From a virus (lineage: Duplodnaviria > Heunggongvirae > Uroviricota > Caudoviricetes), in IMG/VR virus record IMGVR_UViG_3300042554_002914: a DNA stretch of 64,000 bases; one strand, given 5' to 3'. The notes below the pieces were generated by a model. It made no database searches and had not been told where the DNA came from. It was given only the letters and a program-made list of their open reading frames with translations. The translations under genes and the position numbers were made by a program. This document shows positions 23,777 through 53,219 of this stretch, one piece after another; within the stretch, counting starts at the first letter, position 1; the number at the start of each line of letters is the position of its first letter.

Positions 23777-24526
23777 TTACATTTTCATTGTAGCATCTAG
23801 ACGCAAGCCCCCAGAGAAGATAACCTTAGCCATTGTGTCAGGTAGCGTCCCCAGTAGGTGCAGAGAGTCTAAAGTGGAAAACATAAACATTTTGTTTAGT
23901 TCTTCCCTTACCCTCTCCTTGGAGACACCCGCTAGCATTTCCTCCGCCAGACCACTACGCAATGCAGCATGAGTTTCAACCTCGGGGACAAAACCTTTGG
24001 TGATTTGGAACCTGAACCCTCTTAGAACTCTGAGCCCATCTTCTTTGATTCGTTGCTCAGGATCCCCAACAAACCGAAGAATTTTGTTTTCGATGTCGGA
24101 AACCCCGTCAACAAAGTCAATTAGGTTACCTTGAATGTCCCTACAAAGTGCATTTACTGAAAAGTCTCTGCGAAAAATGTCATCTTCCAGGGTACCCGGC
24201 TTCACCCAATCAGGGCGACGGCCATCGCTGTAGGGACCATCTTTGCGGGCTAGTACAAAGTCAGCGACGGTAGTGCGGGCCTCTAGCACATGGCCCTTTG
24301 GGACCCGCGCACGAATGGTTAGAAACTCACGGCGAGACTCGAAAATCTGGAAACCTTGCTCGGCAAGCTGAGCTTCCATCGCAAGGAAAGCACTATCGGC
24401 CGTGGCGAAGACACCCTCGGGAGCAACAACAGAGAAGTCAATGTCCTTGGATGGAATCCCAAGTAAACTATCCCTGACACAACCCCCCACCTCAAAAAAT
24501 TGAAATTTTTCCACTTGCTTTGCCAT
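23777..24526 (-). CDS. cca: tRNA nucleotidyltransferase (CCA-adding enzyme), minimal head/neck form
   Basis: GGCVRDSLLG..DIDF is a class-II nucleotidyltransferase motif. RRDFSVNAL is a CCA-enzyme signature. The protein is 249 aa. Confidence 0.75.
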   Translation of the reverse strand: MAKQVEKFQFFEVGGCVRDSLLGIPSKDIDFSVVAPEGVFATADSAFLAMEAQLAEQGFQIFESRREFLTIRARVPKGHVLEARTTVADFVLARKDGPYSDGRRPDWVKPGTLEDDIFRRDFSVNALCRDIQGNLIDFVDGVSDIENKILRFVGDPEQRIKEDGLRVLRGFRFQITKGFVPEVETHAALRSGLAEEMLAGVSKERVREELNKMFMFSTLDSLHLLGTLPDTMAKVIFSGGLRLDATMKM

Positions 24527-24931
24527 TTATGCCTCGGTTTTTGATTACTGGTATTTTAGCATAGGGGGTGGCAAGCTGTCAAGGGGTGGTGCTTATGAGG
24601 TAGCCTAGGGTGGCCGATGCGGTTGTTTACGCCTACCATGGTACATTAAGTTTTGTTACAGTCATAATCCCGTGGCAAAGTGACGCTTACAAACCTTAAG
24701 TAACACTAACTCCCCCAAATATCTATCACTATGTTCCAAAAATGCACTCATTGCTTCCCCCTCAGAATTATAACCACCATAGGAATTTAAACGTTCACCA
24801 AACATATTCCTATCATCAGGGTCTACAAGGCGCCCTTCATCTGTCAATTCGCGCCAAATGTAGGAAGTTGTTATTTTGGTGGCTTTTCTAGATTGATACA
24901 TTATTGGGGGAGGTTAATATACTGGATACAA

Positions 24932-25813
24932 TCAAATCTTAGGCAATTCAACTACTTTGCCGACAGGTTCTGGGGGTACCATGGCATCGGCCCCACCATC
25001 GGCCCCACCATCGGCCCCACCATCGGCCCCACTAATCATCTTACTGCCGTCAACCATGGCCGCCATAGCACCTACACCATAACTATGAGCAGTTTGGATA
25101 AAATGGGCTTCAACTTCTGCCTTAGCTTCTTCGACCATGACCTCAGTTGCTTCCTTGAAGGACTCTACCGCAAAGTCCAGGTTTTTAGGTAAATTACTAG
25201 CCTGGGATTTCAAATTAGCCACAATTCCCTTCAGTTTAACCTTGCTGATAGACTTATCATTAAGTACCCCCTCTAGTTGGCCTGCAATGTCATTGATCCC
25301 TTGCATAGCCTGTTCAAGTTTAACCCCAAACTCCTCATTGAAACTATCCTTCCGGTTCTTCTCTGGTGGTTTAATCCCAGGAACAGCAACCAGTGGCCCC
25401 TCAGAAAGGCGATTCAAAGTAATTGGGGTAGCTTGACTTCTACCTGCTCCGCTGACAAATTTCCCCCATTGAGCTTCACTCATTGAGAACTCAACAACTT
25501 GTCCCCTAGGGAATACCCAATCCCTATGCAAATTCCTTTCCATCTCTGCTGTTTGAATGGTTACCGATATGTAGTGATTATGGCTTAAATCAGACCCGAA
25601 CAAATAAACCCCAGGTGTACATTGCGGGCGAGTAACTGTGATCACCCCATAAGCAGGATGGCTGTAAACTTGGTTGTTGTCTTTGGTGGTGATGGTAGGT
25701 GCTTGATTGCTCATTGATTTTGGTGGGGTTGTCTTTGGTGGGGATGTGTGTCGCTGTTGATACTGTCGCTGCTGTCGTTGCTGTCGGGTTATATGGAAAG
25801 GGCTTACATTCAC
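24932..25813 (-). CDS. hypothetical protein with a (GGAD)n repeat and a Q/R-rich N-terminus
   Basis: 293-aa ORF. The tandem 12-mer ggccccaccatc lies at 24990-25030. Confidence 0.45.
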   Translation of the reverse strand: MNVSPFHITRQQRQQRQYQQRHTSPPKTTPPKSMSNQAPTITTKDNNQVYSHPAYGVITVTRPQCTPGVYLFGSDLSHNHYISVTIQTAEMERNLHRDWVFPRGQVVEFSMSEAQWGKFVSGAGRSQATPITLNRLSEGPLVAVPGIKPPEKNRKDSFNEEFGVKLEQAMQGINDIAGQLEGVLNDKSISKVKLKGIVANLKSQASNLPKNLDFAVESFKEATEVMVEEAKAEVEAHFIQTAHSYGVGAMAAMVDGSKMISGADGGADGGADGGADAMVPPEPVGKVVELPKI

Positions 25814-25829
25814 TGCATACTATCGGCGA

Positions 25830-26351
25830 TTAGCGACTAGCAGTAACTTTAGAGCGACTGAGGATCGTAGCAACATAAATGCGCCCCTTTTTAGCCATGG
25901 CAGATACTGCTTTGTTACGATTAAATACCGGAACTTTCTTAACGGTGGGCTCCATTTTAGCCTTGGCAGCATCTTCTAGGGCCTTCAGTTTGGCTTTGGC
26001 AACTTCCACCGTTTGGGTAGCCTTTTGGATCTTAGTATTGCCAGAAAAATCATATTCCTTATCCTCCCGCAGAATGAAATTACCGTAAATCGTCTCAATT
26101 TTCTTAAGATCGGCAGCCTCCAGCTTCTCAGCAATGGAAGCCTTAACAGCACTCCTGCGCTCAGTCAGGGCAGCAATACGCTCGTCCAGCGAAGACAAGC
26201 GACGGACAAGGTTCTCGGTGGTTTGGGCTTGGGTTTGGGTTTGGATTGTAGTTTGGGCGATAGCCATGGCTTCGGTGTGTGTGTCAACTGAACCCAGTAT
26301 AAGGGGTGCCTGCCCCCTTGTCAACCCCCCTAACCAAAACGCAACCATCAC
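25830..26351 (-). CDS. hypothetical coiled-coil protein
   Basis: 173-aa minus-strand ORF. Confidence 0.45.
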   Translation of the reverse strand: MMVAFWLGGLTRGQAPLILGSVDTHTEAMAIAQTTIQTQTQAQTTENLVRRLSSLDERIAALTERRSAVKASIAEKLEAADLKKIETIYGNFILREDKEYDFSGNTKIQKATQTVEVAKAKLKALEDAAKAKMEPTVKKVPVFNRNKAVSAMAKKGRIYVATILSRSKVTASR

Positions 26352-26389
26352 CCGTCGTCTTAGTACGGGGGCAGCGGCGACAATGGCTA

Positions 26390-26797
26390 CTAAACCAACT
26401 TAGCTTGAATTTTAACTAACTTTTCCAACAGGGCACCCATGGACTTGGCTTCCCCCACTGCAAGGTCTAATTGCCCCCTGGTCACATACGTAGCAATCCG
26501 CTCACTATGCCTTGTGCGAGATACAGAACAAAAAGACTCAGCGCATTGTGCTAAGATGCCCCATTCTTCATTACTTAATTCAATCGAACGCTTAATCGGG
26601 CTATTTGCACCATTGTCAAAATCCCTATAACCCTCAGACTCGATTGCACATGGTTCTAAAAGCAAGCGTTGTAGCCTGGGAAGCGGGCGGGGCGGTGCAT
26701 CAAGGGCGGCATTAAATGCGTCCCAATTCGCCGTATCCAAAATAATAGGCTGTTGGTCTCCCTGGTCTCCGCCGGAAAACTCACTTGGTGTGGTCAT
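26390..26797 (-). CDS. hypothetical protein
   Basis: 135-aa ORF. An N-terminal stretch (WDAFNAALDAPPRP) resembles the C-terminus of DUF1778-type antitoxins; the match is weak. Confidence 0.4.
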   Translation of the reverse strand: MTTPSEFSGGDQGDQQPIILDTANWDAFNAALDAPPRPLPRLQRLLLEPCAIESEGYRDFDNGANSPIKRSIELSNEEWGILAQCAESFCSVSRTRHSERIATYVTRGQLDLAVGEAKSMGALLEKLVKIQAKLV

Positions 26798-27084
26798 TTG
26801 GTGTTATGCAATTTATGTAGTTTATTCAGAAATAGGAAACCAGCATATTTATGGAAAACTTCAACAGGTCTCCAATCATTGAAGTATTCAGATGACAGAA
26901 ACCATTTGCCACTTTCCGATTTATAGACTCTGCCACACTCTGACATTGTATTTGAGCTACGGTAAATGACTAGGGAAGGTTTATTTACTGAGATGTAGAG
27001 GGGGGATTGGTACTTTGTTTGTGGTTTGTCCATGGTGGAGGCGGAAAGGAGAGGTGGGATGGGCTTAAATGAATGTAAAGGCAA
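26794..27084 (-). CDS. hypothetical protein
   Basis: 96-aa minus-strand ORF. Confidence 0.35.
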   Translation of the reverse strand: MPLHSFKPIPPLLSASTMDKPQTKYQSPLYISVNKPSLVIYRSSNTMSECGRVYKSESGKWFLSSEYFNDWRPVEVFHKYAGFLFLNKLHKLHNTK

Positions 27085-27103
27085 TCAACAAATGTAGAGA
27101 CAA

Positions 27104-27826
27104 TCAACTAAAGATATCTTCTGTTTCCTTTTTCTTAATCTGCCAGTAAGTGTCCCGGGTAGCATTATACGCGGTTAAAATACCTGAGAATACAGCCCCG
27201 GTATCAATCCCGATACGGTCATTAGTTATGTCCGGATCTTTACCTACGATAGTATGACCATGGACAACTTTCTTTATTTTGGCGGTCCATTCATGCAGTT
27301 CAGGTCCCAGGCTAAGGAATGGTTCACGTATCCATAGTAGGTTGTCGGCCTTTTTAGTTTTAATTTGTTCAAAGGGATCATGCCCAGGAAACACTCCAGC
27401 ATGGATAAACATTGTGTCCCCCACAGTCATGTAGATAGGTAGTTGTTTGATCCATTCATAGTGATTGGCTTTCATGTCTTCAAACTGTTTAAGATTTCCG
27501 CCATTTCTCACCCAAATCGCCAAAGAATTGTATCCCCACATGGTTTCGGATCCTGCAACAACATCGACAAACATACGTTCATGGTTACCCATCAGCACAT
27601 TGAAACTTTCTAGTCCTGCACTTTCGGGATCGTCCATTAGTTCTTTGACTTTGTTAAGGACATCCATATCTTCGCCACCCCGGTCAATCAAGTCCCCCAG
27701 CAGAATCACTCGCGCCCCAGTTCCATTAAGCCACTTTAATGCGGCAGTTAAAACATCATAACGAGCGTGGATGTCACCAATGGCTACTACATCACCGACA
27801 TTTACTTTTTTCCTCAGCCTGGTCAT
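27104..27826 (-). CDS. calcineurin-like metallophosphoesterase (lambda-phosphatase / Pnkp-phosphatase type)
   Basis: GDIHA, GDLIDRG and GNHE motifs are all present. Confidence 0.75.
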   Translation of the reverse strand: MTRLRKKVNVGDVVAIGDIHARYDVLTAALKWLNGTGARVILLGDLIDRGGEDMDVLNKVKELMDDPESAGLESFNVLMGNHERMFVDVVAGSETMWGYNSLAIWVRNGGNLKQFEDMKANHYEWIKQLPIYMTVGDTMFIHAGVFPGHDPFEQIKTKKADNLLWIREPFLSLGPELHEWTAKIKKVVHGHTIVGKDPDITNDRIGIDTGAVFSGILTAYNATRDTYWQIKKKETEDIFS

Positions 27827-27969
27827 TTTACTTCGGGGTTTGTACTTTGGGGGTTTTACTTTGGGGTTCTTGCTTTGGGGTTAATATCCCGGTGTTTATC
27901 CTGTGGGTCATCCTGTGGATATCCTATGGGTAATCATGCGGGGTCACCATACGGGACCACACTACGGGT

Positions 27970-28464
27970 TCATTGGGTCCGGCCACCAACATATTCTACC
28001 ATAGAAAAACCTTCCGTGTCAACCCCCCTTAAGGACGCTTGCAAGGCAGAGTGCATCTTTTCAATAACCAACTCAGGTACATTGCGACTCCTAGCTGCAT
28101 TTTGCTTAAGACAAATGTCTAAGGGTGGGTTCACTACGATGGCCCTAATGTCGTGGTAGCCATAACCCTGAAGCAAAGCAATTACGTCCTTGCGGTATTT
28201 TGCCCTATAATGGGTGCCATCCATAATGAGTACCTTGCCAACATTTTCCTCAATTAAGTTCTCAATACGATCTTGAATAACCATCCATTCGCCCTGAATA
28301 TTGGCATCCCCATATAATTCTGCTCGGATTTGGTCCCCGGAGATGATTACTGCGTTTTCACATTCAGCAAGCCTAGCAGCATAGGTGGATTTACCGGAAC
28401 CAGGAGCCCCCACCATGATGTAGGCGTGGTTGTGGTTGTAGGTGAGGGTATTTTCAGGAGTCAT
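27970..28464 (-). CDS. P-loop kinase, polynucleotide kinase (T4 Pnk kinase domain)-like
   Basis: The Walker A (VGAPGSGKST) is at the N-terminus. The protein is 164 aa. It lies immediately upstream of the phosphoesterase gene on the same strand. Confidence 0.55.
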   Translation of the reverse strand: MTPENTLTYNHNHAYIMVGAPGSGKSTYAARLAECENAVIISGDQIRAELYGDANIQGEWMVIQDRIENLIEENVGKVLIMDGTHYRAKYRKDVIALLQGYGYHDIRAIVVNPPLDICLKQNAARSRNVPELVIEKMHSALQASLRGVDTEGFSMVEYVGGRTQ

Positions 28465-28809
28465 AAGGGGGTTTAGAAGGGGTCTAAGGGCCCCGGGGGG
28501 GTGTCAAAACCACATCAATTACACTTAGTATAGCATACCGCCAACCAAAGTCAATGCCCGAAAGTCAAAAACCTATACCTGTCTAACCAATCCTTAAGCA
28601 AATCATCATCTTCGACTACTTGGGGGTTTTGATTTACAAAATCTTCAACTACCCACGCAACTTCTTTGAATTGCAATTCGTTACAGTCCGGTTTGAATGG
28701 GACTTTAAGGTTTGGATACTTGGGTAGTATTGCGGCTAGTTGTGACTTTAGACTTAATGGTACGGCCATCTTGTAAACCTCAAGGATTCAACAAACTTAC
28801 CCATTACCC

Positions 28810-29112
28810 TCAAAGGTCAGTCTCTAGGGCAATTTCCCCCAGGTTAAACTTTTCCATAATATCCAAATAACCAGCATTCAAAATACCTTGAATAAGGTCA
28901 CCGTCGTCTAGTTCCTTCAGATTTGCAGTCAAGGCTTCGCAATAAACACGAATAAGTTCCTTAACTGGTGCATTTTCTGCAACACGGGACACCACAATGT
29001 CGATCAGTTCGTTGCGATTTTCAATAGGTTCAGGGGCCATTTTTTGTCTGTTTGGTTTGTTTAGTCTGTTCGGTCTGTTTAGTCCGTTCGGTCCATAAAT
29101 GTAATTATACAA
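28810..29112 (-). CDS. hypothetical protein
   Basis: 100-aa minus-strand ORF. Confidence 0.3.
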   Translation of the reverse strand: MYNYIYGPNGLNRPNRLNKPNRQKMAPEPIENRNELIDIVVSRVAENAPVKELIRVYCEALTANLKELDDGDLIQGILNAGYLDIMEKFNLGEIALETDL

Positions 29113-29154
29113 TTACCTTAATATAACCAAGATGTAACCCCCAGGGATTACAAA

Positions 29155-29243
29155 GGAAGAAGGGGGATTCGAACCCCCGGAGCCGCGAAAGCGACTCTGC
29201 AGTTTTCAAGACTGCCGCTATCAGCCACTCAGCCACTCTTCCA
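29155..29243 (-). tRNA. tRNA-Ser (anticodon UGA), type II with a long variable arm
   Basis: The reverse complement gives acceptor GGAAGAG, anticodon stem GCAGU/ACUGC and loop CUUGAAA. The variable arm is long. The T-arm is GGGGGUUCGAAUCCCCC. CCA is not encoded. Confidence 0.85.
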
Positions 29244-29279
29244 GTGGTTCATCTAATGGGCCTTCAATTGGGCCAGAAC

Positions 29280-30140
29280 CTATGGCTTTGTCTCACCTTG
29301 TTCTAATTCACTTGGGGTTTCTTTCTTTGGCCCCTTTGAAATTTTACGATTAGATTTGTAGCCGCACTTGCTTAATTTGTCTAGGAACAAAAATAGTCTA
29401 TCTAACCAAGTTAGAGTGGGCAAGGTAGCTTTCGGTCCGAACATCGGGGTTTTTCTGCCTTTCCAATTTAGGCCGATTCCGGCTTCACTTTCGATATGAA
29501 TGACCACGATTTCCGGTAGTAACTCTCTTTTTTCTCGTGGCCACTTTTTGCAATGCAAAACATCTGTGCGGTCCGCAAATCCGTGTTTGCTCGGGTATTG
29601 ACTTACCCCTGAACCTACTGGATTCCACATTTGGAAGTAACCGATTGGCTCATAGCCCCCTTGCCAAGATTTGTATTCAGCAATTCTGACCCCGACCGGA
29701 TACCTGTCTAAATGGATAAAAATCCAAGAATCTTGAATGGGAGATGGCTTATCTACAAACTTTATCCAATCTTCATAACCAGGGCACATCAAACGGTCGG
29801 CACCATAGATCTTTTCCTTATCTAGGGGTAAATTCTCTAGAATTGATCGTGTTTGAGGGGGCAAGTAGATATCTGAGTCCAGGTGCAGAACCCATCCATC
29901 TAGGCTCAGTTTTTCTAACCCTGCATTTATTCCTTTGCCTTTATTAAATGCGTCACCGTTCTCATAAAAAACATCCGTTTGAACACACTCTACATTGTAG
30001 TATTCGCATAGCTTCTTAGTATCGTTATCCTTAGTATCGGTAACGACTACGAGTTTATCAAACTGATTTCGGGTGCTGGGCAAGGTATGGGCCAGGAAGT
30101 CAGAGTAGTTGACGCAAATAATGACGGCTTCGAGTTTCAC
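29280..30140 (-). CDS. glycosyltransferase-like protein (GT-A fold)
   Basis: The N-terminal pattern (AVIICVNYSDF..LVVVTDTKDND) is followed by a DSD motif. The protein is 286 aa. Confidence 0.4.
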   Translation of the reverse strand: MKLEAVIICVNYSDFLAHTLPSTRNQFDKLVVVTDTKDNDTKKLCEYYNVECVQTDVFYENGDAFNKGKGINAGLEKLSLDGWVLHLDSDIYLPPQTRSILENLPLDKEKIYGADRLMCPGYEDWIKFVDKPSPIQDSWIFIHLDRYPVGVRIAEYKSWQGGYEPIGYFQMWNPVGSGVSQYPSKHGFADRTDVLHCKKWPREKRELLPEIVVIHIESEAGIGLNWKGRKTPMFGPKATLPTLTWLDRLFLFLDKLSKCGYKSNRKISKGPKKETPSELEQGETKP

Positions 30141-30544
30141 GGTTGGAGGGGGTGGGGTAGCCTACCCTGAATTTTACCCCCCCGTTCATTAACCTTTCAA
30201 ATTAGATTTGGCAAGGTCTAATGCAATCCAGTTTTTCAGGGTTTGAAGACTGCGAATTTTTGCCTGAAGGTGTGATAATCCCTCTTCGGAAAAAGACTCA
30301 GGACATAACTCTCGTTCAGCAATTAGTTCCCCTGCATACATTTCAAGGGCTTCGATTGCGAGTTCTTTATCTTGTTTGGAAATTAGTGACATGGCCTATG
30401 AGTTGAAACCTTTGGGTGCGTTAATTAGCTTGGTGTTTGCCATTTTTTTTATAGTTGTTAGCGTAGGTTGTTAGCGTAGATTGCTAATGCAGGTTGTTAA
30501 TGCAATGAGTACAAACCCTGGCCATTATTACCCATTGTCAAATA

Positions 30545-30632
30545 GGCGTGTAGGGAGTCGAACCCTAACTAGCCGGTAATCTGCCGGAGTGGCCTTCATA
30601 AGGGGCCCTGTGCTACCGTACACCACACGCCC
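30545..30632 (-). tRNA. type-II tRNA (long variable arm) with a noncanonical anticodon arm; anticodon ambiguous (UAU if the stem is 4 bp plus a C.A mismatch)
   Basis: Acceptor GGGCGUG, U8, D-stem GUGU/GCAC and T-arm UAGGG-UUCGACU-CCCUA are canonical. The variable arm is a hairpin, CCGGCAGAUUACCGG. The anticodon region is GGCCC-CUUAUGA-AGGCC, which can also be read as a 9-nt loop. Confidence 0.6.
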
Positions 30633-31047
30633 GAATTTCTAGGAGTTAAATAACCGTGTTAATTACCATGTTGGTTTCCAATTAGTTTTTAATTAGGTGA
30701 AAAAATTGCCCCTGGCTTTGTTAGAGCCATTGTTTAATGTTGTTTGGTTATGGACGTATCCATGGAACCCTAAGTTGTATTATCAATGGGGCGTTTCCTA
30801 AACGTTAATCGCTTCTATAGCGGCCAACTTAAATCAAGTCAGCCATCAACATCTTGGTCGTAAAGATCAAGAGCCTCTAGAACTTCTACCCCCGTCTCAG
30901 CAGCATCTAGCCGAAGAAGCAAATCTGCAGTAGCAGGATTACTTTCAGACAGTACAGCTGCCTTAGCAGCAATCAGAGCATTAGCCATTTTTGTTTGTTT
31001 TTGTGAGCTTTGTTTAACACTTGGTATGGCTGCATCTCAGCAACCAA

Positions 31048-31119
31048 CACCCTGAGAGGGATTTGAACCCCCGACCGACGACTTAGAAGGTCGCTGCTCT
31101 TCCACTGAGCTACCAGGGC
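31048..31119 (-). tRNA. tRNA-Arg (anticodon UCU)
   Basis: D-arm is GCUC-AGUGGAA-GAGC. Anticodon stem-loop is GCGAC-CUUCUAA-GUCGU. T-arm is GGGGG-UUCAAAU-CCCUC. The acceptor has G.U pairs. Confidence 0.8.
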
Positions 31120-31280
31120 TTGATATTTGGTTGATGGCTGCGGGGGGCCACAGGGGGGCCAAAACGGGTTCCCAACACTATTGTAGCATACACTGGGGCA
31201 AAGTCAATGGGTCTGCCGGGAACCTGCTAGGCACTACCGGAAACTGCCCGACACTGCTGAATGATGCCGAATGCAACCAA

Positions 31281-31565
31281 TCAAATGATGTAATAATGAA
31301 TTAAACTGAATGATCCAGGGAATTTTCGGGTAGCACCATCCAAGGCAGCAATCTCCTGAACCTTGCCGTAGGCCCTATCCATGTTTGCCAAGGAGTCCCA
31401 AAATAGCAAAATCGTAACCTGATCGCCCCTAACTGAGCCTATTTGCTTTCTGATGAACCCTTGCTGTTGTCTTAGCCATGGCTCCCAGACCTTGCCGTAT
31501 GTATCAAGAAAGACTGCCTTGGATGATGACGGCGTAATCTGAAATGTTAAACTTTCGATTTTCAC
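31281..31565 (-). CDS. hypothetical protein
   Basis: 94-aa minus-strand ORF. Confidence 0.35.
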   Translation of the reverse strand: MKIESLTFQITPSSSKAVFLDTYGKVWEPWLRQQQGFIRKQIGSVRGDQVTILLFWDSLANMDRAYGKVQEIAALDGATRKFPGSFSLIHYYII

Positions 31566-31595
31566 TTTGGGTTTAGGTGTGTTGTTTTTCTTAAC

Positions 31596-31931
31596 TTATT
31601 TGCCATTGGCTTCGGGCGCACTTACTGATCGCTTCCATTCCGTCCAATGATCAAATGGGCACCTCATGTTCGCCATTGTCGTTTTTAGTGGCATGAAACA
31701 ATCACAATCCCCACACTGAGATGACTCCGGCTTAAACAAACCGCAAATGTTGCTTTCGCAAATTGCTAACCTATCCTTTGCAACTTGGCGAGGAGCAATT
31801 GTAGGGTCGGCCAGCAGTCTAGCGGCGGTATCTCTGATGGAAGCACCGAAACTACGGCGACAACATTCCGGGTTTTCGTTGGTGCCTTCTAAGTTTTCTA
31901 AGTTTTCCATAGGTGACCCAGGTTGTCCCAA
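31596..31931 (-). CDS. hypothetical Cys-rich protein
   Basis: 111-aa ORF with a cysteine cluster (CESNICG..CGDCDC..C). Confidence 0.35.
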   Translation of the reverse strand: MGQPGSPMENLENLEGTNENPECCRRSFGASIRDTAARLLADPTIAPRQVAKDRLAICESNICGLFKPESSQCGDCDCFMPLKTTMANMRCPFDHWTEWKRSVSAPEANGK

Positions 31932-31971
31932 TTGTTTAACATGATTACTTCCCGGTTAAATACTACCCTGA

Positions 31972-32490
31972 TCAATTCGTAAAAGAATCCAACGTGGTTA
32001 GATGGGAATGGAGGGTGGATTCTTTATGGAACCTATACACAGATGAAAACTCACCCGTTTGCTGAAAATACCTTAGTTCATCTAGCACTACCCTAACTAC
32101 AGGGCAATCAGAAACCCATGCCTTCATCCAAAAGGTTTGGAACTTTTCCAGGTACTCCCATTTTTGGTCGTGAGGTGTCCAAACTTTTGTGTACTTTGGT
32201 GGGTTCTTCCAAGGATCACTATAAGATGAGGGGTCATCAATTGCCAGTCCTTCAATAACATCGTGTGAATCCCTTAGAAACCTGAAAAAATAAAAGTCAC
32301 ATTCAGGGATTTTCCAAGTTATATTGACTATTAGGAATGGAATATCAGGGTAGTTGCCCTTAGACTTTGTAATTCCTTCAGTTACCTTCAGGCTAGTTAT
32401 CTGAGTGTCCACGGTGTCATTCACCCTCATCGCCAGCCTGTTCTGAATCTTCGGGCACCGTACCCAAAAGCAAACCCTCAAAGAAACCAA
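31972..32490 (-). CDS. hypothetical protein
   Basis: 172-aa minus-strand ORF. Confidence 0.4.
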   Translation of the reverse strand: MVSLRVCFWVRCPKIQNRLAMRVNDTVDTQITSLKVTEGITKSKGNYPDIPFLIVNITWKIPECDFYFFRFLRDSHDVIEGLAIDDPSSYSDPWKNPPKYTKVWTPHDQKWEYLEKFQTFWMKAWVSDCPVVRVVLDELRYFQQTGEFSSVYRFHKESTLHSHLTTLDSFTN

Positions 32491-32701
32491 CTACATCGAA
32501 GCGATTAGACGGGTCCACACCGACTTTACGGCAGACTTCAATCGCTGCCTCTTCGAAGGGTAAGTAAGGGTCCGCCAATCCAAAGGTTCTGAGACGTTGT
32601 AGGAAGCAATCTCGGATTGCAGCATATAGGGGTGGCAACTCGGACTCGTCAAGTTCGACTGTCCGTTCAATGGCTGTTGGGGCCTTGTATGTGATTTGCA
32701 T
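32417..32701 (-). CDS. hypothetical acidic protein
   Basis: 94-aa ORF with coherent composition. The overlapping ORF 32491..32835 looks spurious. Confidence 0.35.
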   Translation of the reverse strand: MQITYKAPTAIERTVELDESELPPLYAAIRDCFLQRLRTFGLADPYLPFEEAAIEVCRKVGVDPSNRFDVVGFFEGLLLGTVPEDSEQAGDEGE

Positions 32702-32854
32702 TTTTGGTCTTTAAGTAGGAAACGAATGTTTGCGTTTGTTGCCAGGGTTAAGTCTTTTGGCATTAAGATGGTGCCACCCCTCTCGATAAATCGGACAGAT
32801 TTGAGGAAGGCATGAGGGCGGATCTTTGTGGCCATTACGGTCAGGAGTTGGGTT

Positions 32855-34015: not shown

Positions 34016-34084
34016 TGATAGTATAGCACAAGGTTAAAACGAAGTCAAGGGGCCAACCCGAAAGTCAACCCCCCCCCAAGGGAT

Positions 34085-35691: not shown

Positions 35692-36462
35692 TCAAGGCTG
35701 GAGCCTGCCATCGTGGCCAAAATACCGGAGCACCTTGGTTTCCACATCGTACAGACAAAGTTTGGTATCTTCAGGGTTGATTTCGCTATGGGAAGACCCA
35801 CCCATTTGACCGTCGAGGACGATGTTTTTCTCGCTGATGTAAACATTATGATAATGTCCAGCGACTCGGACCCATTCCTTATCATCATCTTCCAACCACC
35901 ATGGGAGGCGATCAGATGTAACTTTCCCATCTTCCAAGGTAACCTTATAGAAAGGCCCATAGATCATGGTTTCAAGTTCCCTGCGGGTAATAGCATTGGA
36001 CATTACTTGGTGGGTGCCATTATATTTCGGGATGGGCAATCTGCGGGGGAAACAAGCGTGAGCGCACCGGTATTCAGTACCTTCCGCACCCCTAAATACA
36101 AAGCCATAAGGCATCGAATCGAGCCAAGGCAATACCTCGGCGACCAAATCAATGCCACCTTTTTCAAAGTCATCTATGGTAGTTCGCAAGTCTTGGAAAA
36201 CCTTGACTTTATTTCCCTTGAGATAGCGAATCAGTTTATTTTGGTGATTGCTTTGCAGGATGATAGTGCCAGGGATTTCCTTTTGAATTTGCCTCACTGC
36301 ATGATAAACCCCGACAGAATCTGAGGTTTCGCACCTTGAATCAAAAAGGTCCCCCAGTAGAATTGGGGTTAGCCTTTCCGACAAGCAGAGCTTTAGGGCC
36401 GCTTCCAGGGGGAGCAACTGGGAATGGATGTCACCAATGATGGCGTAACGAGTGTGTGTCAT
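35692..36462 (-). CDS. calcineurin-like metallophosphoesterase (second copy, divergent)
   Basis: GDIHS and GDLFD are present, and SNHQ occupies the GNHE position. Confidence 0.7.
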   Translation of the reverse strand: MTHTRYAIIGDIHSQLLPLEAALKLCLSERLTPILLGDLFDSRCETSDSVGVYHAVRQIQKEIPGTIILQSNHQNKLIRYLKGNKVKVFQDLRTTIDDFEKGGIDLVAEVLPWLDSMPYGFVFRGAEGTEYRCAHACFPRRLPIPKYNGTHQVMSNAITRRELETMIYGPFYKVTLEDGKVTSDRLPWWLEDDDKEWVRVAGHYHNVYISEKNIVLDGQMGGSSHSEINPEDTKLCLYDVETKVLRYFGHDGRLQP

Positions 36463-36558
36463 GGACCCATTGTAGCATGTTTGATGGGGGTTGCCCCTCA
36501 GGGTATGACTGCTGGGGTCATCACTGAGGGCATTATATCCCGTGATTTAATAGTCCCA

Positions 36559-36994: not shown

Positions 36995-37109
36995 ATGGGA
37001 CCGGCAGGATTTGAACCTACAACCTCTCCTTTATCATAGGAATTTTAATTGCTGATGTATCTTTGACAAGATAACTTTCTTTAGCGCTCTGTCGTTGAGC
37101 TATGGTCCC
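36995..37109 (-). ncRNA. tRNA-like RNA gene in which a roughly 40-nt insertion replaces the anticodon arm
   Basis: Minus-strand reading is GGGACCA-UA-GCUC-AACGACA-GAGC, then the insertion, then GUAGG-UUCAAAU-CCUGC-CGGUCCC-A. The insertion holds a UAUCUU-GUCA-AAGAUA hairpin and the motif CAGCAAUUAAAAUUCC. No canonical 7-nt anticodon loop is present. Confidence 0.5.
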
Positions 37110-37216
37110 TTGTTTGCTTCGCAAATAGCTTGTTGAAACACGGTTTAGCTAGATAGTTGGTTTTCCGATTTTGAAGGGGATGGTTGCTGAACTATCTACG
37201 TTTGCCGAAGGCAAAG

Positions 37217-37346
37217 TCGAAGAGGCAAGATTCGAACTTGCGTATGGCGGTTCCTTTTAGCGTATTGGGGTATTGCTGAACTATCTAAGGTATCACTAGA
37301 TGGTCTTTTTGCATTACCGCTGCCTTACCCACTTGGCTACTCTTCG
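37217..37346 (-). ncRNA. tRNA-like RNA gene with a roughly 57-nt insertion between anticodon-stem halves GCGGU/ACCGC
   Basis: CGAAGAG-UA-GCC-AAGUGGGUAA-GGC-A-GCGGU precedes the insertion, which holds an AUCUAG..UUAGAU hairpin and CAGCAAUACC. ACCGC-CAUAC-GCAAG-UUCGAAU-CUUGC-CUCUUCG-A follows it. Confidence 0.5.
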
Positions 37347-37401
37347 TTGTTGGTTGTTGGTTGTTGGTCTAGTGTTTTAACTGTTTAAGGTCAACAAGGT
37401 G

Positions 37402-37480
37402 AGCTTGCTGGATTTGAACCAGCTAACCAGGCGTATCACGTACTCCTTGTATTATCCTATTTGGAATGGCTGCCTCACCT
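37402..37480 (-). ncRNA. partial tRNA-like element (T-arm plus a 7-bp closing helix) carrying the same CAGC..AUUCC motif
   Basis: A GCUGG-UUCAAAU-CCAGC T-arm is present. The ends AGGUGAG and CUCACCU pair. No D-arm is recognisable, and 3 nt lie between the T-stem and the closing helix. Confidence 0.3.
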
Positions 37481-37592
37481 TAGGCTTTGAGCTTGTTAAG
37501 CAAGCCCGACACTTCTATTATAGTGTGTATGGACAGGGAGTAAAGGGGTGAAAACCGAACATTGCCACTGAGTGTAGAATTCCGTGGACAAA

Positions 37593-37710
37593 TAGGGGAA
37601 GAAGGAATCGAACCTCCGTCACGTCCGTATGATGGAATTTTTGTAATTGCTGTCTGCACCTTATTCAAGGTAACCGTTAATTACGTGTGCTGCCACCGCA
37701 CTATTCCCCT
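37593..37710 (-). ncRNA. tRNA-like RNA gene in which a roughly 43-nt insertion replaces the anticodon arm
   Basis: AGGGGAA-UA-GUGC-GGUGGCA-GCAC-A precedes the insertion, which holds a UUACCUU-GAAU-AAGGUG hairpin and CAGCAAUUACAAAAAUUCC. GGAGG-UUCGAUU-CCUUC-UUCCCCU-A follows, with a perfect 7-bp acceptor. Confidence 0.5.
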
Positions 37711-50994: not shown

Positions 50995-51677
50995 TTTGTT
51001 TCGTAGTAGTTTTGGTTTAAGGGGATTTTACTGCTTAGATTTTACCCCTTGCTATTGGGTTAATTGCTGTTGGGACGAATAGGATACAGGCTGACCCTTA
51101 CTTGAGTTTGGTGTTCGTCATTTGACCAGATAGTCCAATCAGCGTATCCAACCCGGTAAGACTTGCCATCCAGAGTTAGGAAGCTTTCTCTTGCGGGAAT
51201 TGCGGGGAGTTCTAGCTGGCGGTGATCAATATAAGAATCGTTATCGTCAGCGTTTGTGAATTGAATTGGAATCATTATGCAATAAAGATTAGAAAGGCCA
51301 TTGGGTCTGCATTAATTGAAAAAGAAGCATGGAATTTACCAACTATGTTCAAATCGAATTTTATGAACACCTTGGGGAATCTCCGAAAGGATGATCTCAT
51401 AGCCTTCGGAACCAGGGCAAGGGACAACTTCATGGACCGGGATTTTTACTTCCAGGGTACTATCTGGGTCGATATACTCGGGTTTGATGCCGCCGAAATA
51501 GTCCGAAGTTTCTTCCGGCAAGGACACCCCAACTTCTTGACAAACTCGTAGAACTTTGAGATGTTTTTGATGCTCTGCATCGTCAGGGGAACGGTAGCCT
51601 TTGACGTAGGTTGACATTGACATTTTGTGGTCGGGTTATTGTCGTGGTAGTGAGCAGAGTTTAAAGGTTTCGGAAAT

Positions 51678-51983
51678 TCAGCGGGGAACGTGTTCCCTCT
51701 TATCAAGTTCTGCCTTGAGGTTGTCTCTTAAGAATATGAGGTCCCTAACCTGTGAAGCTCGGTACAGGGGGTTAGGCTGGTAAATTCCTAGTTCATTCAA
51801 TACTTGCTTGGGTATTACCGCAGTTTCAGGATAACCCTCCAGGTCCTTTTTGTGGACTTCATAGGCATTCCAATCCCAATCATGCAGCACGCTGAGCTGG
51901 CCACTAACCATTCGAAATACCTTAAGCAGCCTGGGTGTAGGTAGCTTCAAGAGGTAGTCTAGATTGTTGTTGTTTGGGTTCAT
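51678..51983 (-). CDS. hypothetical protein (paralog of 55946..56176)
   Basis: The N-terminus (MNPNNNNLDYLLKLPTPRLL) matches the paralog (MDPNRNSLETILKLPTHRLL). Confidence 0.35.
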   Translation of the reverse strand: MNPNNNNLDYLLKLPTPRLLKVFRMVSGQLSVLHDWDWNAYEVHKKDLEGYPETAVIPKQVLNELGIYQPNPLYRASQVRDLIFLRDNLKAELDKREHVPR

Positions 51984-52049
51984 AGTTTCGTTGGGCGCAC
52001 GGGTTAGAAAATCCGGGCATCAACCCGAAGTCACCAATCCAGGGCCATC

Positions 52050-53219
52050 CTACCGGATCCCAAGCAGTTTGTCAAGTTGTTGGGGCCGTAGGTCTGCTAG
52101 CCACTGCCGGAAGGTAGGGTACCTACCGGAGCGTATTGCGAAACAGGCTGCCGATACCGAGGGGGCATCTTTGAGAATTGCAATGGCGAATTCCTTTTGC
52201 GTTAAGGCTCCATACTTATGAAGCATCATCTCACATAAAGATTGCATCGCAGGGATAGCAGAGTCCAGATGAATCGAAAACTTATCTCTATATTCAGGGA
52301 AGTGCAATAGGAACTCTTCCAAGTCGTCATTAAGGAACAATTCCGAAAAGTCAGGCTCGCCATTATTCCATGCCCGGTGTAGTTGGCAGTATAACCTAGA
52401 CTTAATCTTAACCCTTCCAACCCCATCAAACAATACATAACCTTCATGATTTGAATCTCGCTTTTCAACTTTGGTAAGTACAGAGTCAAGGTCACTGAAT
52501 TCGTAAGATGGGGCCACCACATAGCCATACCACCCAAACTCTTCCAGATCACACTCTTCGAAGTCCTGATCTCGGTCTCGTACTGCTAGTAAGGGAAGTT
52601 TGGGCGCATCGTAGTTAATAACATCTTTATTATCTAGGTGACATAACTCAAAGATGTAGCAAATTGACGGGTCTAGGCATTCCTTTAAGTACCCTACTTT
52701 TTCGAATACATCCCAGAATAATTCATCAAAGGTTTTTTTAGTTTTTCCTACTAGGCCATCCCCTGCTACTGAACCAGAAGTTGAAACGAGCCATTGCCCC
52801 CTATACTCAAACAATTTAATTAAGGAGCCGGAAAATTTCTCATAAACCTTGGTGCGAGACCAATCTAGTTCGTGACAGTAACCTTCCCCAACGTTGAAAA
52901 ATCTATCGAACGCATATGCAACCAAGCGATAGTACGGCGAGTGGTCACCATCGTTATCAACACGCTCGACCACAGCACCACGGCAGGCACAAACCAGCGG
53001 ATTTGATTTGGATGCTAAAATCGTCCCATATTTCAAATTAAAAAGGTTCGGATACCTTTCATCGCGAGTAACACGAATGTCATACTCAGCTAGGGCGTCT
53101 AGGGCATTGTAACCCCTCTCGTTAAGCCAGTCAATCAAGTAGTGGCGCAAGTTTTCCATGGTTGTAGTATAGGTGGTTTTTACTGGCAGGGTAAGGCGGT
53201 TTACCGAACTCATTTCCAA
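52050..53219 (-). CDS. T4 Rnl1-family RNA ligase (tRNA-repair ligase) with a variant motif I
   Basis: CRGAVVE aligns with T4 ECRGIMFE. FDRFFNVGE aligns with MEKFFNLNE. EGYVLFDGVGRVKIKSRLYCQLH aligns with T4 [24 protein letters not shown]. Motif I reads EKFSGSL instead of KEDGSL. Confidence 0.7.
   Translation of the reverse strand: MEMSSVNRLTLPVKTTYTTTMENLRHYLIDWLNERGYNALDALAEYDIRVTRDERYPNLFNLKYGTILASKSNPLVCACRGAVVERVDNDGDHSPYYRLVAYAFDRFFNVGEGYCHELDWSRTKVYEKFSGSLIKLFEYRGQWLVSTSGSVAGDGLVGKTKKTFDELFWDVFEKVGYLKECLDPSICYIFELCHLDNKDVINYDAPKLPLLAVRDRDQDFEECDLEEFGWYGYVVAPSYEFSDLDSVLTKVEKRDSNHEGYVLFDGVGRVKIKSRLYCQLHRAWNNGEPDFSELFLNDDLEEFLLHFPEYRDKFSIHLDSAIPAMQSLCEMMLHKYGALTQKEFAIAILKDAPSVSAACFAIRSGRYPTFRQWLADLRPQQLDKLLGIR

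What the first reader, a model, noticed from the sequence alone, without database searches (positions are those of the whole stretch)
23777..53219. Dispersed but complete RNA healing-and-sealing toolkit
The window encodes:
- a T4 Rnl1-family ligase (52050..53219);
- a second ATP-dependent ligase with a KLDGSS motif I and an EGLVFK motif (44371..45468);
- a Pnk-like P-loop kinase (27970..28464) immediately followed by a calcineurin-type phosphoesterase (27104..27826), which is the split equivalent of the Clostridium thermocellum Pnkp kinase-phosphatase arrangement;
- a second divergent phosphoesterase (35692..36462) right next to the tRNA-like cluster;
- a minimal CCA-adding enzyme (23777..24526).
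In T4, Rnl1 plus Pnkp repair tRNA cut by the host anticodon nuclease PrrC. Here the toolkit is richer, with two ligases and two phosphoesterases. It is also combined with tRNAs that lack encoded CCA and with the insertion-bearing tRNA-like genes. That is consistent with anti-defence tRNA repair, with processing of those RNAs, or with both.
Basis: partly seen in the sequence, partly recalled or inferred. Interest (0 to 1): 0.7.

Follow-up and report, generated by a model that had tools for sequence, protein, structure and literature searches.

The report
Jumbo-phage RNA repair gene set
A large uncultured phage, probably a cyanophage relative, carries the enzymes needed to mend broken RNA ends: two RNA ligases, a kinase, two phosphoesterases and a CCA-adding enzyme; such gene sets are already described for jumbo phages, so this is a solid but fairly ordinary example.

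Summary

- **44371-45468:** an Rnl5-type nick-sealing RNA ligase (Naegleria NgrRnl, E 3.8e-82). It is not a DNA ligase.
- **52050-53219:** a divergent Rnl1-family ligase. T4 Rnl1 is the top fold match over the full length. In this sub-lineage motif I reads KFSG rather than KxDG.
- **27970-28464:** a Clostridium thermocellum Pnk-type 5' kinase with all essential residues.
- **27104-27826:** a lambda-phosphatase/Pnkp-type metallophosphoesterase. It stays adjacent to the kinase in relatives about 50% identical.
- **35692-36462:** a member of a separate, previously unnamed Pnkp-phosphatase-like family.
- **23777-24526:** the head and neck of a class II CCA-adding enzyme.

The gene order is kept in about 20 related contigs of up to 279 kb. 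The same region also holds a Ro60-fold DUF2828 protein followed by three tRNA-like RNAs, plus Macro, NADAR and tRNA genes.

The most likely role is repair and upkeep of tRNA/RNA during infection, as counter-defence. This is inferred, not shown. Iyer et al. 2021 already describe such gene sets in jumbo phages, so this is a new member of a known kind. The tRNA-like RNAs are the unusual part.

The parts
52050..53219 (-). Rnl1-family ATP-dependent RNA ligase. The probable true start is the ATG at 53159. Motif I is K128-F-S130-G, motif III E191, motif IV E259-G260, motif V K271/K273. A C-terminal helical domain is present.
   Evidence: dN/dS is about 0.08 against close relatives.
44371..45468 (-). 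Rnl5-family (DraRnl/NgrRnl type) nick-sealing RNA ligase with an N-terminal OB-like domain and a C-terminal nucleotidyltransferase domain. K185 is the predicted adenylylation site.
   Evidence: The counterparts of NgrRnl K121, R149, K170, D172, E227, E312 and K326 are all conserved in the alignment.
27970..28464 (-). Stand-alone polynucleotide 5'-kinase of the Clostridium thermocellum Pnk type (164 aa). P-loop GAPGSGKS 19-26; D44 and R47 correspond to CthPnk D38 and R41; lid R125 and R127 correspond to R120 and R123.
   Evidence: Residue roles are taken from PMC3902929.
27104..27826 (-). Binuclear metallophosphoesterase of the lambda-phosphatase/ApaH/Pnkp type, lying 143 nt downstream of the kinase. 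It is the candidate 2',3'-cyclic phosphodiesterase / 3'-phosphatase. Motifs: GDIH 17, GDLIDRG 44, GNHE 80, HAG 142, GHT 190.
   Evidence: Adjacency to the kinase is conserved (gap 10 nt) in L015-L017.
35692..36462 (-). Second metallophosphoesterase, from a distinct family of at least 347 metagenomic proteins. The family is Pnkp-phosphatase-like. Predicted metal ligands are D10, H12, D37, N71, H134, H202 and H204. Motifs II and III are atypical (GDLFDSR and SNHQ).
23777..24526 (-). Short class II tRNA nucleotidyltransferase (249 aa) with head and neck only. Motifs: GGCVRD 14, DID 28, RRD 119, EDGLR 162. The body and tail domains are absent.
   Evidence: The short length is conserved in relatives of 61-86% identity.
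37997..39499 (-). DUF2828/DUF7788 protein with a Ro60 (TROVE + vWA) fold. It is a probable RNA-binding platform and lies immediately upstream of the tRNA-like genes.
36996..37710 (-). Three tRNA-like genes: tl1 37593-37710, tl2 37217-37346, tl3 36996-37109. Each has intact acceptor, D and T arms and a 42-64 nt insertion (a hairpin followed by the invariant CAGCAAU) in the anticodon-arm region. None encodes CCA.
   Evidence: Conserved downstream of the DUF2828 gene in all clade relatives. Covariation in the tl2 hairpin.
39943..40548 (-). Macro-domain protein (phrog_335 'phosphatase'). It is a candidate ADP-ribose / ADP-ribose-1''-phosphate hydrolase and is syntenic with Rnl5 and the Ro-like gene.
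   Evidence: weak Pfam Macro, 2.7e-3; phrog_335, 1.1e-44.
42981..43469 (-). NADAR-domain protein (T4 gp30.3-like), about 900 nt downstream of Rnl5.
   Evidence: (passes the TIGR02464 cut-off).
29154..31119 (-). Phage tRNA genes: Ser(UGA) 29154-29242, Arg(UCU) 31048-31119, and a 90-nt ARAGORN-only call 'Ile(UAU)' at 30543-30632. None encodes CCA.

Best explanation
The window comes from a jumbo phage. Near-identical genes lie on a 279-kb IMG/VR contig. The closest cultured relatives, found only for single genes, are Synechococcus phages.

The phage encodes an RNA end-healing and end-sealing repertoire in its early/accessory region.

Proposed mechanism (inferred throughout):
1. Host or competitor ribonucleases, such as anticodon nucleases and other metal-independent RNases, cut tRNA or other RNA. 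[quoted passage not shown]
2. The two Pnkp-type metallophosphoesterases open and remove the cyclic phosphate to give a 3'-OH.
3. The CthPnk-type kinase phosphorylates the 5'-OH.
4. The Rnl1-type ligase rejoins breaks in single-stranded loops, and the Rnl5-type ligase seals nicks in duplex regions.
5. The short CCA-adding enzyme rebuilds or adds 3' CCA ends on repaired tRNAs and on the phage's own tRNAs, none of which encodes CCA.
6. The Ro60-fold DUF2828 protein with its tRNA-like RNAs, together with the Macro and NADAR hydrolases, probably belongs to the same RNA-maintenance and counter-defence region.

What is shown: the family, fold and active-site assignments, and the conserved synteny.
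What is inferred: the activities, the substrates and the cooperation between the genes.
For: Family and active-site assignments:
- Rnl1 family.
- Rnl5 equivalog with all probed catalytic residues.
- CthPnk-type kinase with K25, S26, D44, R47, R125 and R127.
- Two metallophosphoesterases with complete metal-ligand sets. One stays adjacent to the kinase; the other matches only the Pnkp phosphatase among solved structures.
- CthPnkp and lambda phosphatase both have 2',3'-cyclic phosphodiesterase activity (PMC2190708).
- CCA-adding enzyme motifs are present.

Linkage between the genes:
- The order Rnl1 .. Rnl5 - (NADAR) - Macro - MPE2 - Ro-like - tRNA-like .. Pnk - MPE1 .. CCA recurs in about 20 IMG/VR contigs, at Ro-like identities of 74-97%.
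- MPE2-family and Rnl1-family proteins share several metagenomic contigs of identical length: 268832, 90599, 42196, 26684 and 76322 bp.
- Homologues of this Rnl1 and this kinase are adjacent in unrelated Streptomyces (Wofford gp202/gp206) and Bacillus (Kirov gp99/gp98) phages.

Selection, expression and precedent:
- The genes are under purifying selection (Rnl1 dN/dS about 0.08).
- Sigma-70-like promoters are enriched on the coding strand (39 against 24.2 +/- 5.1), including one directly upstream of the CCA gene. This fits early expression.
- The same combination of functions is described as a counter-defence theme of jumbo phages (PMC7824862).
Against: - No activity, substrate or host nuclease is known.
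- The genes are spread over 29 kb among more than 40 ORFs of unknown function. Co-residence in one conserved accessory region is weaker evidence than an operon.
- The Rnl1 of this sub-lineage has Ser in place of the motif I Asp. The whole family also has Ser where T4 Rnl1 has the essential motif Ia Lys119 (alignment). Its ligase chemistry may therefore differ from T4 Rnl1.
- Phosphoesterase 1 scores as well or better against ApaH and the PrpA/PrpB protein phosphatases than against Pnkp.
- The CCA enzyme lacks the tRNA-binding body and tail domains.
- No Hen1, RtcB, Tpt1/KptA, 2H phosphoesterase or RlaP was found among the roughly 80 window ORFs scanned.
Confidence: 0.62

Rival explanations
1. 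The healing and sealing enzymes mainly process the phage's own RNAs. The 42-64 nt insertions in the tRNA-like genes would be cut out, and the halves healed by the kinase and phosphoesterase and joined by the Rnl1-type ligase. This would be protein-catalysed tRNA splicing of the fungal/plant Trl1 kind, in a bacterial virus.
For: - Deleting the insertion from tl3 and tl1 in silico leaves canonical 72-nt and 71-nt cloverleaves. These have 5-bp anticodon stems and 7-nt loops with U33 and A37 (sequences; alignments).
- Kinase, cyclic-phosphate esterase and Rnl1-type ligase is the enzyme set of Trl1. Trl1 ligase domains are the next-best fold matches after T4 Rnl1.
- MPE2 lies 534 nt from the cluster.
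Against: - No splicing endonuclease or known self-cleaving ribozyme was detected (Rfam E-value scan; Pfam scans).
- tl2 does not reduce to a canonical tRNA.
- Cyanophage B3 has the DUF2828 gene and a tRNA-like gene with the same insertion module, but no detectable Rnl1 or Pnk homologue.
- The hairpin-CAGCAA(T/C) element also occurs free-standing between the genes. This suggests a repeated regulatory or binding element rather than an intron.
Confidence: 0.1
2. The genes are functionally unrelated passengers of a hypervariable accessory region. Under this reading:
- The metallophosphoesterases are protein phosphatases, Np4N hydrolases, or degrade cyclic-nucleotide defence signals.
- The kinase acts on a small molecule or on DNA ends.
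- The CCA enzyme only matures phage tRNAs.
- The ligases have separate roles, for example the tail-fibre attachment role known for T4 gp63.
For: - MPE1's best NCBIfam scores are to ApaH (1.7e-16) and PrpA/PrpB (about 3e-12), and its best PHROG is NinI-like phosphatase.
- Calcineurin-like phosphodiesterases are proposed as counter-signalling enzymes in jumbo phages (PMC7824862).
- The genes are dispersed, with many independent promoter-like sites.
- NAMPT, Macro and NADAR point to NAD/ADP-ribose conflicts that need not involve RNA repair.
Against: - The kinase's best matches in three libraries are polynucleotide kinases: CthPnk, bacter_Pnkp and phrog_505.
- Kinase-MPE1 adjacency is conserved at about 50% identity with a 10-nt gap.
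- Rnl1-like and Pnk-like genes are neighbours in two unrelated phage groups.
- MPE2's only significant solved relative is the Pnkp phosphatase.
- The kinase carries the acceptor-site Asp/Arg pair specific to polynucleotide kinases.
Confidence: 0.2

Closest known systems
Bacteriophage T4 tRNA repair (Pnkp + Rnl1, with Rnl2) against the PrrC anticodon nuclease
   Same: The logic is the same: 5' kinase, 3' end healing and an Rnl1-family ligase, plus a second ligase specialised for nicks. All are encoded by a large lytic phage that also carries tRNA genes and a NADAR (gp30.3-like) gene.
   Different: - The kinase is a stand-alone CthPnk type, not fused to a HAD-type phosphatase.
- 3' healing is assigned to binuclear metallophosphoesterases.
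- The nick-sealing ligase is Rnl5, not Rnl2.
- The Rnl1 scores 23.8 bits against the T4 RnlA equivalog model, whose cut-off is 242, and has KFSG at motif I.
- The genes are dispersed.
- CCA-adding and Ro60-fold genes are added.
Bacterial Pnkp-Hen1 RNA repair system (Clostridium thermocellum Pnkp)
   Same: The kinase and the phosphoesterases are the closest sequence relatives of the Pnkp kinase and phosphatase modules. The gene order, kinase then phosphatase, mirrors the domain order.
   Different: - The modules are split into separate genes.
- There is no Pnkp-type C-terminal ligase domain.
- No Hen1 methyltransferase was found in the window.
- Sealing would be done by Rnl1/Rnl5-type ligases.
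RNA-repair gene sets of jumbo phages (Iyer, Anantharaman, Krishnan, Burroughs, Aravind 2021, PMC7824862)
   Same: The paper describes combinations of several RNA ligases, polynucleotide kinases, phosphoesterases (rarely calcineurin-like), a CCA-adding enzyme, a ROT/TROVE protein with a tRNA-like partner, Macro, NADAR and NAMPT. This is the kind the finding belongs to.
   Different: - This particular lineage has no near match in the 50,697 phage records.
- The MPE2 family has only 8 cultured-phage hits, all cyanophages.
- The Ro-fold protein belongs to the DUF2828 family, and its partner RNAs keep the normal tRNA arm order.
Ro60 (Rsr)-Y RNA modules, including the Salmonella rsr-yrlBA-rtcBA operon (PMC4201824, PMC7790460)
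   Same: A Ro60-fold protein gene is followed directly by tRNA-like non-coding RNA genes and lies near RNA repair enzymes.
   Different: - The protein matches DUF2828/DUF7788, not Pfam TROVE.
- The RNAs have a 7-bp acceptor stem at their own 5'/3' ends, rather than the permuted YrlA layout.
- The RNAs lack the GNCGAAN0-1G Ro-binding motif.
- The linked repair enzymes are ATP-dependent ligases with a kinase and phosphatases, not RtcB/RtcA.
Rnl5 nick-sealing RNA ligases (Deinococcus DraRnl, Naegleria NgrRnl)
   Same: 44371-45468 aligns over its full length with NgrRnl (E 3.8e-82) and has all the catalytic residues probed in the NgrRnl mutant structures.
   Different: It is phage-encoded. Its physiological substrate is unknown, as it is for DraRnl and NgrRnl.

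Membership tests
Rnl1 family (T4 RnlA / Pfam PF09511) | Sequence profile match above the curated threshold | tested here: met
   PF09511 scores 53.2 bits against a cut-off of 28.3. The family profile hits T4 Rnl1 at 8.9e-13.
Rnl1 family (T4 RnlA / Pfam PF09511) | Canonical nucleotidyltransferase motif I KxDG, plus motifs III, IV and V | tested here: not met
   Motifs III (E191), IV (E259-G260) and V (K271, K273) and the motif I Lys (K128) are present. However, motif I reads K-F-S-G in the window, L002-L004 and P0122, whereas 29 of 31 family representatives have KxDG.
Rnl1 family (T4 RnlA / Pfam PF09511) | Two-domain fold: N-terminal adenylyltransferase and C-terminal all-helical domain | tested here: met
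   AF2 model with pLDDT 87. Foldseek top hit is 2c5u, about 396 aligned columns, TM 0.62/0.64.
Rnl1 family (T4 RnlA / Pfam PF09511) | Orthology to T4 RnlA (NCBIfam equivalog TIGR02308) | tested here: not met
   23.8 bits against a cut-off of 242.25. It is a distant clade, not an RnlA ortholog.
Rnl1 family (T4 RnlA / Pfam PF09511) | ATP-dependent sealing of 3'-OH/5'-PO4 breaks in tRNA anticodon loops | not testable with these tools
   Needs a biochemical assay.
Rnl5 family (DraRnl / NgrRnl) | N-terminal OB-like domain fused to a C-terminal nucleotidyltransferase domain, above the equivalog threshold | tested here: met
   PF21189 and PF09414. TIGR02306 scores 170.6 against 151.15. NgrRnl matches over its full length at 3.8e-82.
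Rnl5 family (DraRnl / NgrRnl) | Catalytic residues (NgrRnl K121, R149, K170, D172, E227, E312, K326) | tested here: met
   All are conserved in the alignment, as query K135, R163, K185, D187, E246, E336 and K350. The residue list comes from the PDB mutant titles.
Bacterial Pnkp (C. thermocellum type, Pnkp-Hen1 system) | P-loop polynucleotide kinase with acceptor-site Asp38/Arg41 and lid arginines | tested here: met
   K25, S26, D44, R47, R125 and R127 align to K21, S22, D38, R41, R120 and R123.
Bacterial Pnkp (C. thermocellum type, Pnkp-Hen1 system) | Binuclear metallophosphoesterase module following the kinase | tested here: met
   MPE1 lies 143 nt downstream with complete motifs. It matches bacter_Pnkp at 6.8e-11 but also matches ApaH and PrpA/B. 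The MPE2 family profile hits 4j6o at 5.9e-8.
Bacterial Pnkp (C. thermocellum type, Pnkp-Hen1 system) | Single trifunctional polypeptide with a C-terminal ligase domain and a Hen1 methyltransferase partner | tested here: not met
   The kinase is a 164-aa stand-alone protein. No Pnkp-type ligase domain or Hen1 was found among the ORFs scanned. Small ORFs and the rest of the genome were not scanned.
T4-type Pnkp | Kinase fused to a DxDxT (HAD) 3'-phosphatase | tested here: not met
   The kinase ORF has no HAD domain, and no ORF scanned in the window has one.
Class II CCA-adding enzyme | Head-domain motifs A-E (GGxVRD..DxD, RRD, EDxxR and the rest) | tested here: met
   GGCVRD 14, DID 28, RRD 119 and EDGLR 162. 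The best solved relatives are CCA-adding enzymes 6ibp and 1miv.
Class II CCA-adding enzyme | Body and tail domains that hold the tRNA | tested here: not met
   The protein ends at residue 249. Alignments stop at about residue 203-248 of enzymes 400-420 aa long. The short form is conserved in relatives and in phrog_24229 (profile length 245).
Class II CCA-adding enzyme | CCA (as opposed to A-only, CC-only or poly(A)) addition | not testable with these tools
   Needs an assay.
Ro60/TROVE-Y RNA module | Ro60 fold (HEAT-repeat ring plus vWA domain) | tested here: met
Ro60/TROVE-Y RNA module | Pfam TROVE sequence signature, and a Y RNA carrying the Ro-binding motif GNCGAAN0-1G | tested here: not met
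   Pfam gives DUF2828/DUF7788, not TROVE. The motif is absent from tl1-tl3. No Rfam Y RNA/YrlA match was found.

The most novel reading that the evidence does not exclude
The repair enzymes may be the effector arm of a conserved phage ribonucleoprotein module. The module would be built around the Ro60-fold DUF2828 protein and its tRNA-like RNAs.

The RNAs keep a full tRNA body and carry an inserted hairpin-CAGCAAU element. In tl1 and tl3 they also have an anticodon-like 7-nt loop. Its middle three bases change between close relatives, while positions 32, 33, 37 and 38 mostly stay the same:
- tl1: CAU, UAC or UCC.
- tl3: GAU, GUU or UUU.

Two readings follow:
1. The RNAs are decoys, sensors or scaffolds for host anticodon nucleases, with the breaks then healed and sealed.
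2. They are interrupted tRNA genes that need enzyme-catalysed cut-and-rejoin, which would be the first protein-dependent tRNA splicing in a bacterial virus.
Probability: 0.12. Interest if true: 0.8.

Novelty: new member of a known kind. Interest (0 to 1): 0.36.

Why it matters
If the inference holds, this phage lineage counters RNA-cleaving host defences with an enzyme set that is assembled differently from the T4 paradigm:
- a bacterial Pnkp-type kinase;
- two metallophosphoesterases;
- an Rnl1-type and an Rnl5-type ligase;
- a truncated CCA-adding enzyme.

It offers several things to test:
- a natural split version of Pnkp;
- a large, uncharacterised Pnkp-like phosphoesterase family (at least 347 members);
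- an Rnl1 clade with a natural motif I Asp-to-Ser change.

As a general phenomenon it is already described for jumbo phages, so the gain is incremental. The adjacent DUF2828 and tRNA-like RNA module is the part most likely to teach something new.

Tried and rejected
- **Near-identity DNA search.** A megablast of 24 kb against 50,697 phage records found nothing, so no annotated close relative exists.
- **Rnl1 against the PDB by single sequence.** phmmer found nothing. A family profile and a fold search were needed instead.
- **DNA ligase reading of 44371-45468.** Rejected. DNA_ligase_A_M scores 19.4 bits, below its cut-off, against a full-length Rnl5 match.
- **Adenylate, shikimate or gluconate kinase reading of 27970-28464.** Rejected. 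Those hits are P-loop-only, at E of 1e-3 to 1e-6, against CthPnk/Pnkp over the full length.
- **35692-36462 as a spurious ORF overlapping 35118-35960.** Rejected. It has 347 homologues, two paralogues in relatives, and invariant metal ligands.
- **Known ribozymes, group I introns or Y RNA models in the tRNA-like cluster.** None found.
- **Group I intron in the split Rnl1 of L006.** None found. It is a split intein instead.
- **YrlA Ro-binding motif in tl1-tl3.** Absent.
- **Burroughs & Aravind 2016 (NAR 44:8525).** This is the primary comparative study of RNA repair systems, but it is not held in the library. What I say about it comes from its citation in PMC7824862 and from memory.
- **Literature on DUF2828.** Nothing relevant found.
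- **Literature on T4 Rnl1 Asp101.** Not found in the library. The statement that Asp101 substitutions block later ligation steps is from memory (Heaphy et al. 1987, Biochemistry 26:1688).

Full report
**What is there.** Nearly all genes in the 64-kb window (45.7% G+C) lie on the - strand. No annotated phage is close at the DNA level. IMG/VR holds near-identical genes on contigs of up to 279 kb (IMGVR_UViG_3300044846_005229; 94-97% protein identity) and more distant relatives on contigs of 190-277 kb. Metagenomic homologues also sit on contigs of 268-282 kb. The element is therefore a jumbo phage. The closest cultured relatives, found only for single genes, are Synechococcus phages: S-CREM1 for the Rnl5 ligase (60%), B3/B23 for the DUF2828 protein (58%), and S-CBWM1 and B3 for phosphoesterase 2. 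A glutamine riboswitch is present, which fits a cyanophage-like origin.

**The ligases.**
- *44371-45468.* This ORF has an N-terminal PHA02142 OB domain and a PF09414 nucleotidyltransferase domain. It aligns end to end with the Naegleria gruberi nick-sealing RNA ligase (3.8e-82). It passes the NCBIfam equivalog threshold for RNA_lig_DRB0094, the Deinococcus founder of the Rnl5 family. Every residue mutated in the NgrRnl crystal series (K121, R149, K170, D172, E227, E312, K326; titles) is conserved.
- *52050-53219.* This ORF matches Pfam RNA_lig_T4_1 and the T4 gp63 PHROG. A profile of 31 homologues hits T4 Rnl1 (8.9e-13). A confident model (pLDDT 87) superposes on T4 Rnl1 over its full length, C-terminal helical domain included. 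Fungal Trl1 ligase domains come next. It is a distant clade, well below the T4 RnlA equivalog cut-off.
- *Deviations in the Rnl1.* The whole clade has Ser where T4 has the motif Ia Lys119. The window's sub-lineage (window, L002-L004, P0122) reads K128-F-S130-G at motif I, where 29 of 31 representatives have KxDG. The gene is nevertheless under strong purifying selection (dN/dS about 0.08). From memory of Heaphy et al. 1987, Asp101 substitutions in T4 Rnl1 allow enzyme adenylylation but block the later steps. Full ligase activity of this copy therefore cannot be assumed.
- *Start codon.* The start is probably the ATG at 53159.

**The healing enzymes.**
- *Kinase.* The 164-aa kinase is closest, in three independent libraries, to polynucleotide kinases: the C. 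thermocellum Pnk domain (3.5e-13), NCBIfam bacter_Pnkp (8.3e-18) and phrog_505. It keeps the residues shown to be essential in CthPnk: Lys21, Ser22, Asp38 and Arg41, plus lid residues Arg120 and Arg123 (PMC3902929). These map to K25, S26, D44, R47, R125 and R127.
- *Phosphoesterase 1.* 143 nt downstream lies a metallophosphoesterase with all five motifs. It is related to lambda phosphatase, ApaH, PrpA/B and the Pnkp phosphatase. Both CthPnkp and lambda phosphatase hydrolyse 2',3'-cyclic phosphates (PMC2190708).
- *Adjacency.* The kinase-phosphoesterase pair stays adjacent, with a 10-nt gap, in relatives only 49-55% identical (L015-L017).
- *Phosphoesterase 2.* 35692-36462 looked weak alone but belongs to a family of at least 347 metagenomic proteins. 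All seven predicted metal ligands are invariant and motifs II and III are unusual. The family's only significant solved relative is the CthPnkp phosphatase domain (5.9e-8). Relatives carry one or two paralogues between Rnl1, Rnl5 and the Ro-like gene.
- *CCA enzyme.* 23777-24526 carries the class II head and neck motifs but stops at residue 249, without the body and tail domains. The short form is conserved. None of the six tRNA or tRNA-like genes encodes CCA.

**Are the genes linked?**
- The order Rnl1 .. Rnl5 - (NADAR) - Macro - MPE2 - Ro-like - tRNA-like - DUF932 .. GT2 - Pnk - MPE1 .. CCA recurs in about 20 contigs of this clade.
- Homologues of this Rnl1 and this kinase are neighbours in two unrelated groups: Streptomyces phage Wofford gp202/gp206 and Bacillus phage Kirov gp99/gp98.
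- MPE2-family and Rnl1-family proteins share several metagenomic contigs.

This is guilt by association, not proof. In this phage the genes are spread over 29 kb with many promoter-like sites.

- It is followed directly by the three tRNA-like genes. This pairing is conserved in all clade relatives and in cultured cyanophage B3 (gp345 followed by a 110-nt 'tRNA-Pseudo-GCA' with the same hairpin + CUGCAAU module). More distant DUF2828 loci sit beside tRNA arrays.
- Ro60-Y RNA modules linked to RNA repair genes are known in bacteria (PMC4201824, PMC7790460). A ROT/TROVE protein with a tRNA-like partner is noted for some jumbo phages (PMC7824862).
- These RNAs are not YrlA. They keep the normal arm order and lack the Ro-binding motif.
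- Macro (phrog_335) and NADAR genes lie between Rnl5 and the Ro-like gene.

**Mechanism and rivals.**
- *Best-supported reading (0.62).* This is a counter-defence RNA repair and tRNA upkeep repertoire: cyclic-phosphate removal by the metallophosphoesterases, 5' phosphorylation by the kinase, loop sealing by Rnl1, nick sealing by Rnl5, and CCA restoration.
- *Processing of the phage's own tRNA-like RNAs (0.10).* This is attractive because removing the insertion from tl1 and tl3 leaves canonical cloverleaves. However, no endonuclease or ribozyme was found. tl2 does not fit. B3 has the RNA without Rnl1 or Pnk. The hairpin-CAGCAA element also occurs free-standing.
- *Unrelated functions for the phosphoesterases and kinase (0.20).* This cannot be excluded, mainly because phosphoesterase 1 resembles ApaH and protein phosphatases as much as Pnkp.

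**Novelty.** Iyer et al. 2021 describe combinations of several RNA ligases, polynucleotide kinases, phosphoesterases (rarely calcineurin-like), a CCA-adding enzyme, a ROT/TROVE protein, Macro, NADAR and NAMPT as a conflict adaptation of jumbo phages. The finding is therefore a new member of a known kind. The incremental points are the split CthPnkp-type healing pair, an unnamed Pnkp-like phosphoesterase family, the Rnl1 plus Rnl5 pairing, and a natural KxSG motif I. The adjacent DUF2828 and tRNA-like RNA module, with its variable anticodon-like loops, is the most unusual feature and deserves its own study.

Noticed in passing
window 36996-37710 (-); orthologues in L009-L022: In tl1 and tl3 the insertion lies on the 5' side of an otherwise intact anticodon-like stem-loop. 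The three central loop bases differ between close orthologues (tl1: CAU, UAC, UCC; tl3: GAU, GUU, UUU). Positions 37 and 38 stay the same throughout, and positions 32 and 33 stay the same in tl1 but vary in tl3. The rest of each RNA is 82-96% identical. The tl2 insertion hairpin shows compensatory changes.
   Followed up: partly
window about 37755-37808 (-) and about 37150-37199 (-); L027 about 21752-21830 and 21978-22030: Free-standing copies of the element found inside the tRNA-like genes lie in the spacers between them: a 9-bp inverted repeat whose 5' arm is followed directly by CAGCAA(T/C). Similar repeats flank the tRNA-like gene of cyanophage B3. This suggests a repeated binding, processing or mobile element.
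   Followed up: no
window 13874-15328 (-) and 3492-4352 (-): There is a full-length cysteinyl-tRNA synthetase (tRNA-synt_1e 2.9e-122, DALR_2, CysS_C). There is also a 286-aa protein containing only an N-terminal piece of the alanyl-tRNA synthetase catalytic core (8.2e-24). The invariant CAGCAAU of the tRNA-like RNAs contains GCA, the Cys anticodon, and tRNAscan called GCA in the B3 homologue. A link to the phage CysRS is untested.
   Followed up: no
L006 8212-10777 (IMGVR_UViG_3300044645_002359): The Rnl1 gene of this relative is fractured exactly at motif I. The N-terminal half ends KYDG followed by CLHAETKV... The C-terminal half begins with ...AEGVLVHN followed by SLIKLF. A 366-aa ORF with weak DUF559 (Vsr-like endonuclease) matches lies between them on the opposite strand. 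This looks like a split intein with a free-standing homing endonuclease. No group I intron was detected.
   Followed up: partly
window 54023-54100 (-): A glutamine riboswitch (glnA RNA, 46.4 bits against a gathering score of 35) lies upstream of a 70-aa ORF (53784-53996), just upstream of the Rnl1 region. This motif is typical of cyanobacteria and marine phages.
   Followed up: no
window 26390-26797 (-): An ORF with a TacA1-like antitoxin domain (1e-5, above the cut-off) lies between phosphoesterase 1 and the CCA gene. From my own knowledge, TacA neutralises TacT toxins, which acetylate aminoacyl-tRNA, so this could be another tRNA-protecting counter-defence. S-CREM1 also has a Tac antitoxin gene near its Rnl5.
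   Followed up: no
window 30543-30632 (-): ARAGORN calls a 90-nt 'tRNA-Ile(UAU)' with a long extra arm and an irregular anticodon position. Rfam does not report it at gathering score. Its fold is no better than shuffled sequence (z -0.58).
   Followed up: partly
window 62305-63810, 60959-61552, 20829-21677, 17484-18665, 9700-11085 (all -): Other conflict or housekeeping genes are present: NAMPT (phrog_448, 8.5e-178), an HNH endonuclease, an SPFH/Band 7 protein, a DNA polymerase III beta-clamp homologue, and a methyltransferase-like DUF4942 protein.
   Followed up: no
window 23500-40000, - strand: Sigma-70-like promoter matches are enriched (39 against 24.2 +/- 5.1 in shuffles). Almost all lie on the coding strand. 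They include 11/12 matches just upstream of the CCA gene and the DUF932 gene, and one inside the 3' end of the kinase gene that could drive phosphoesterase 1.
   Followed up: no
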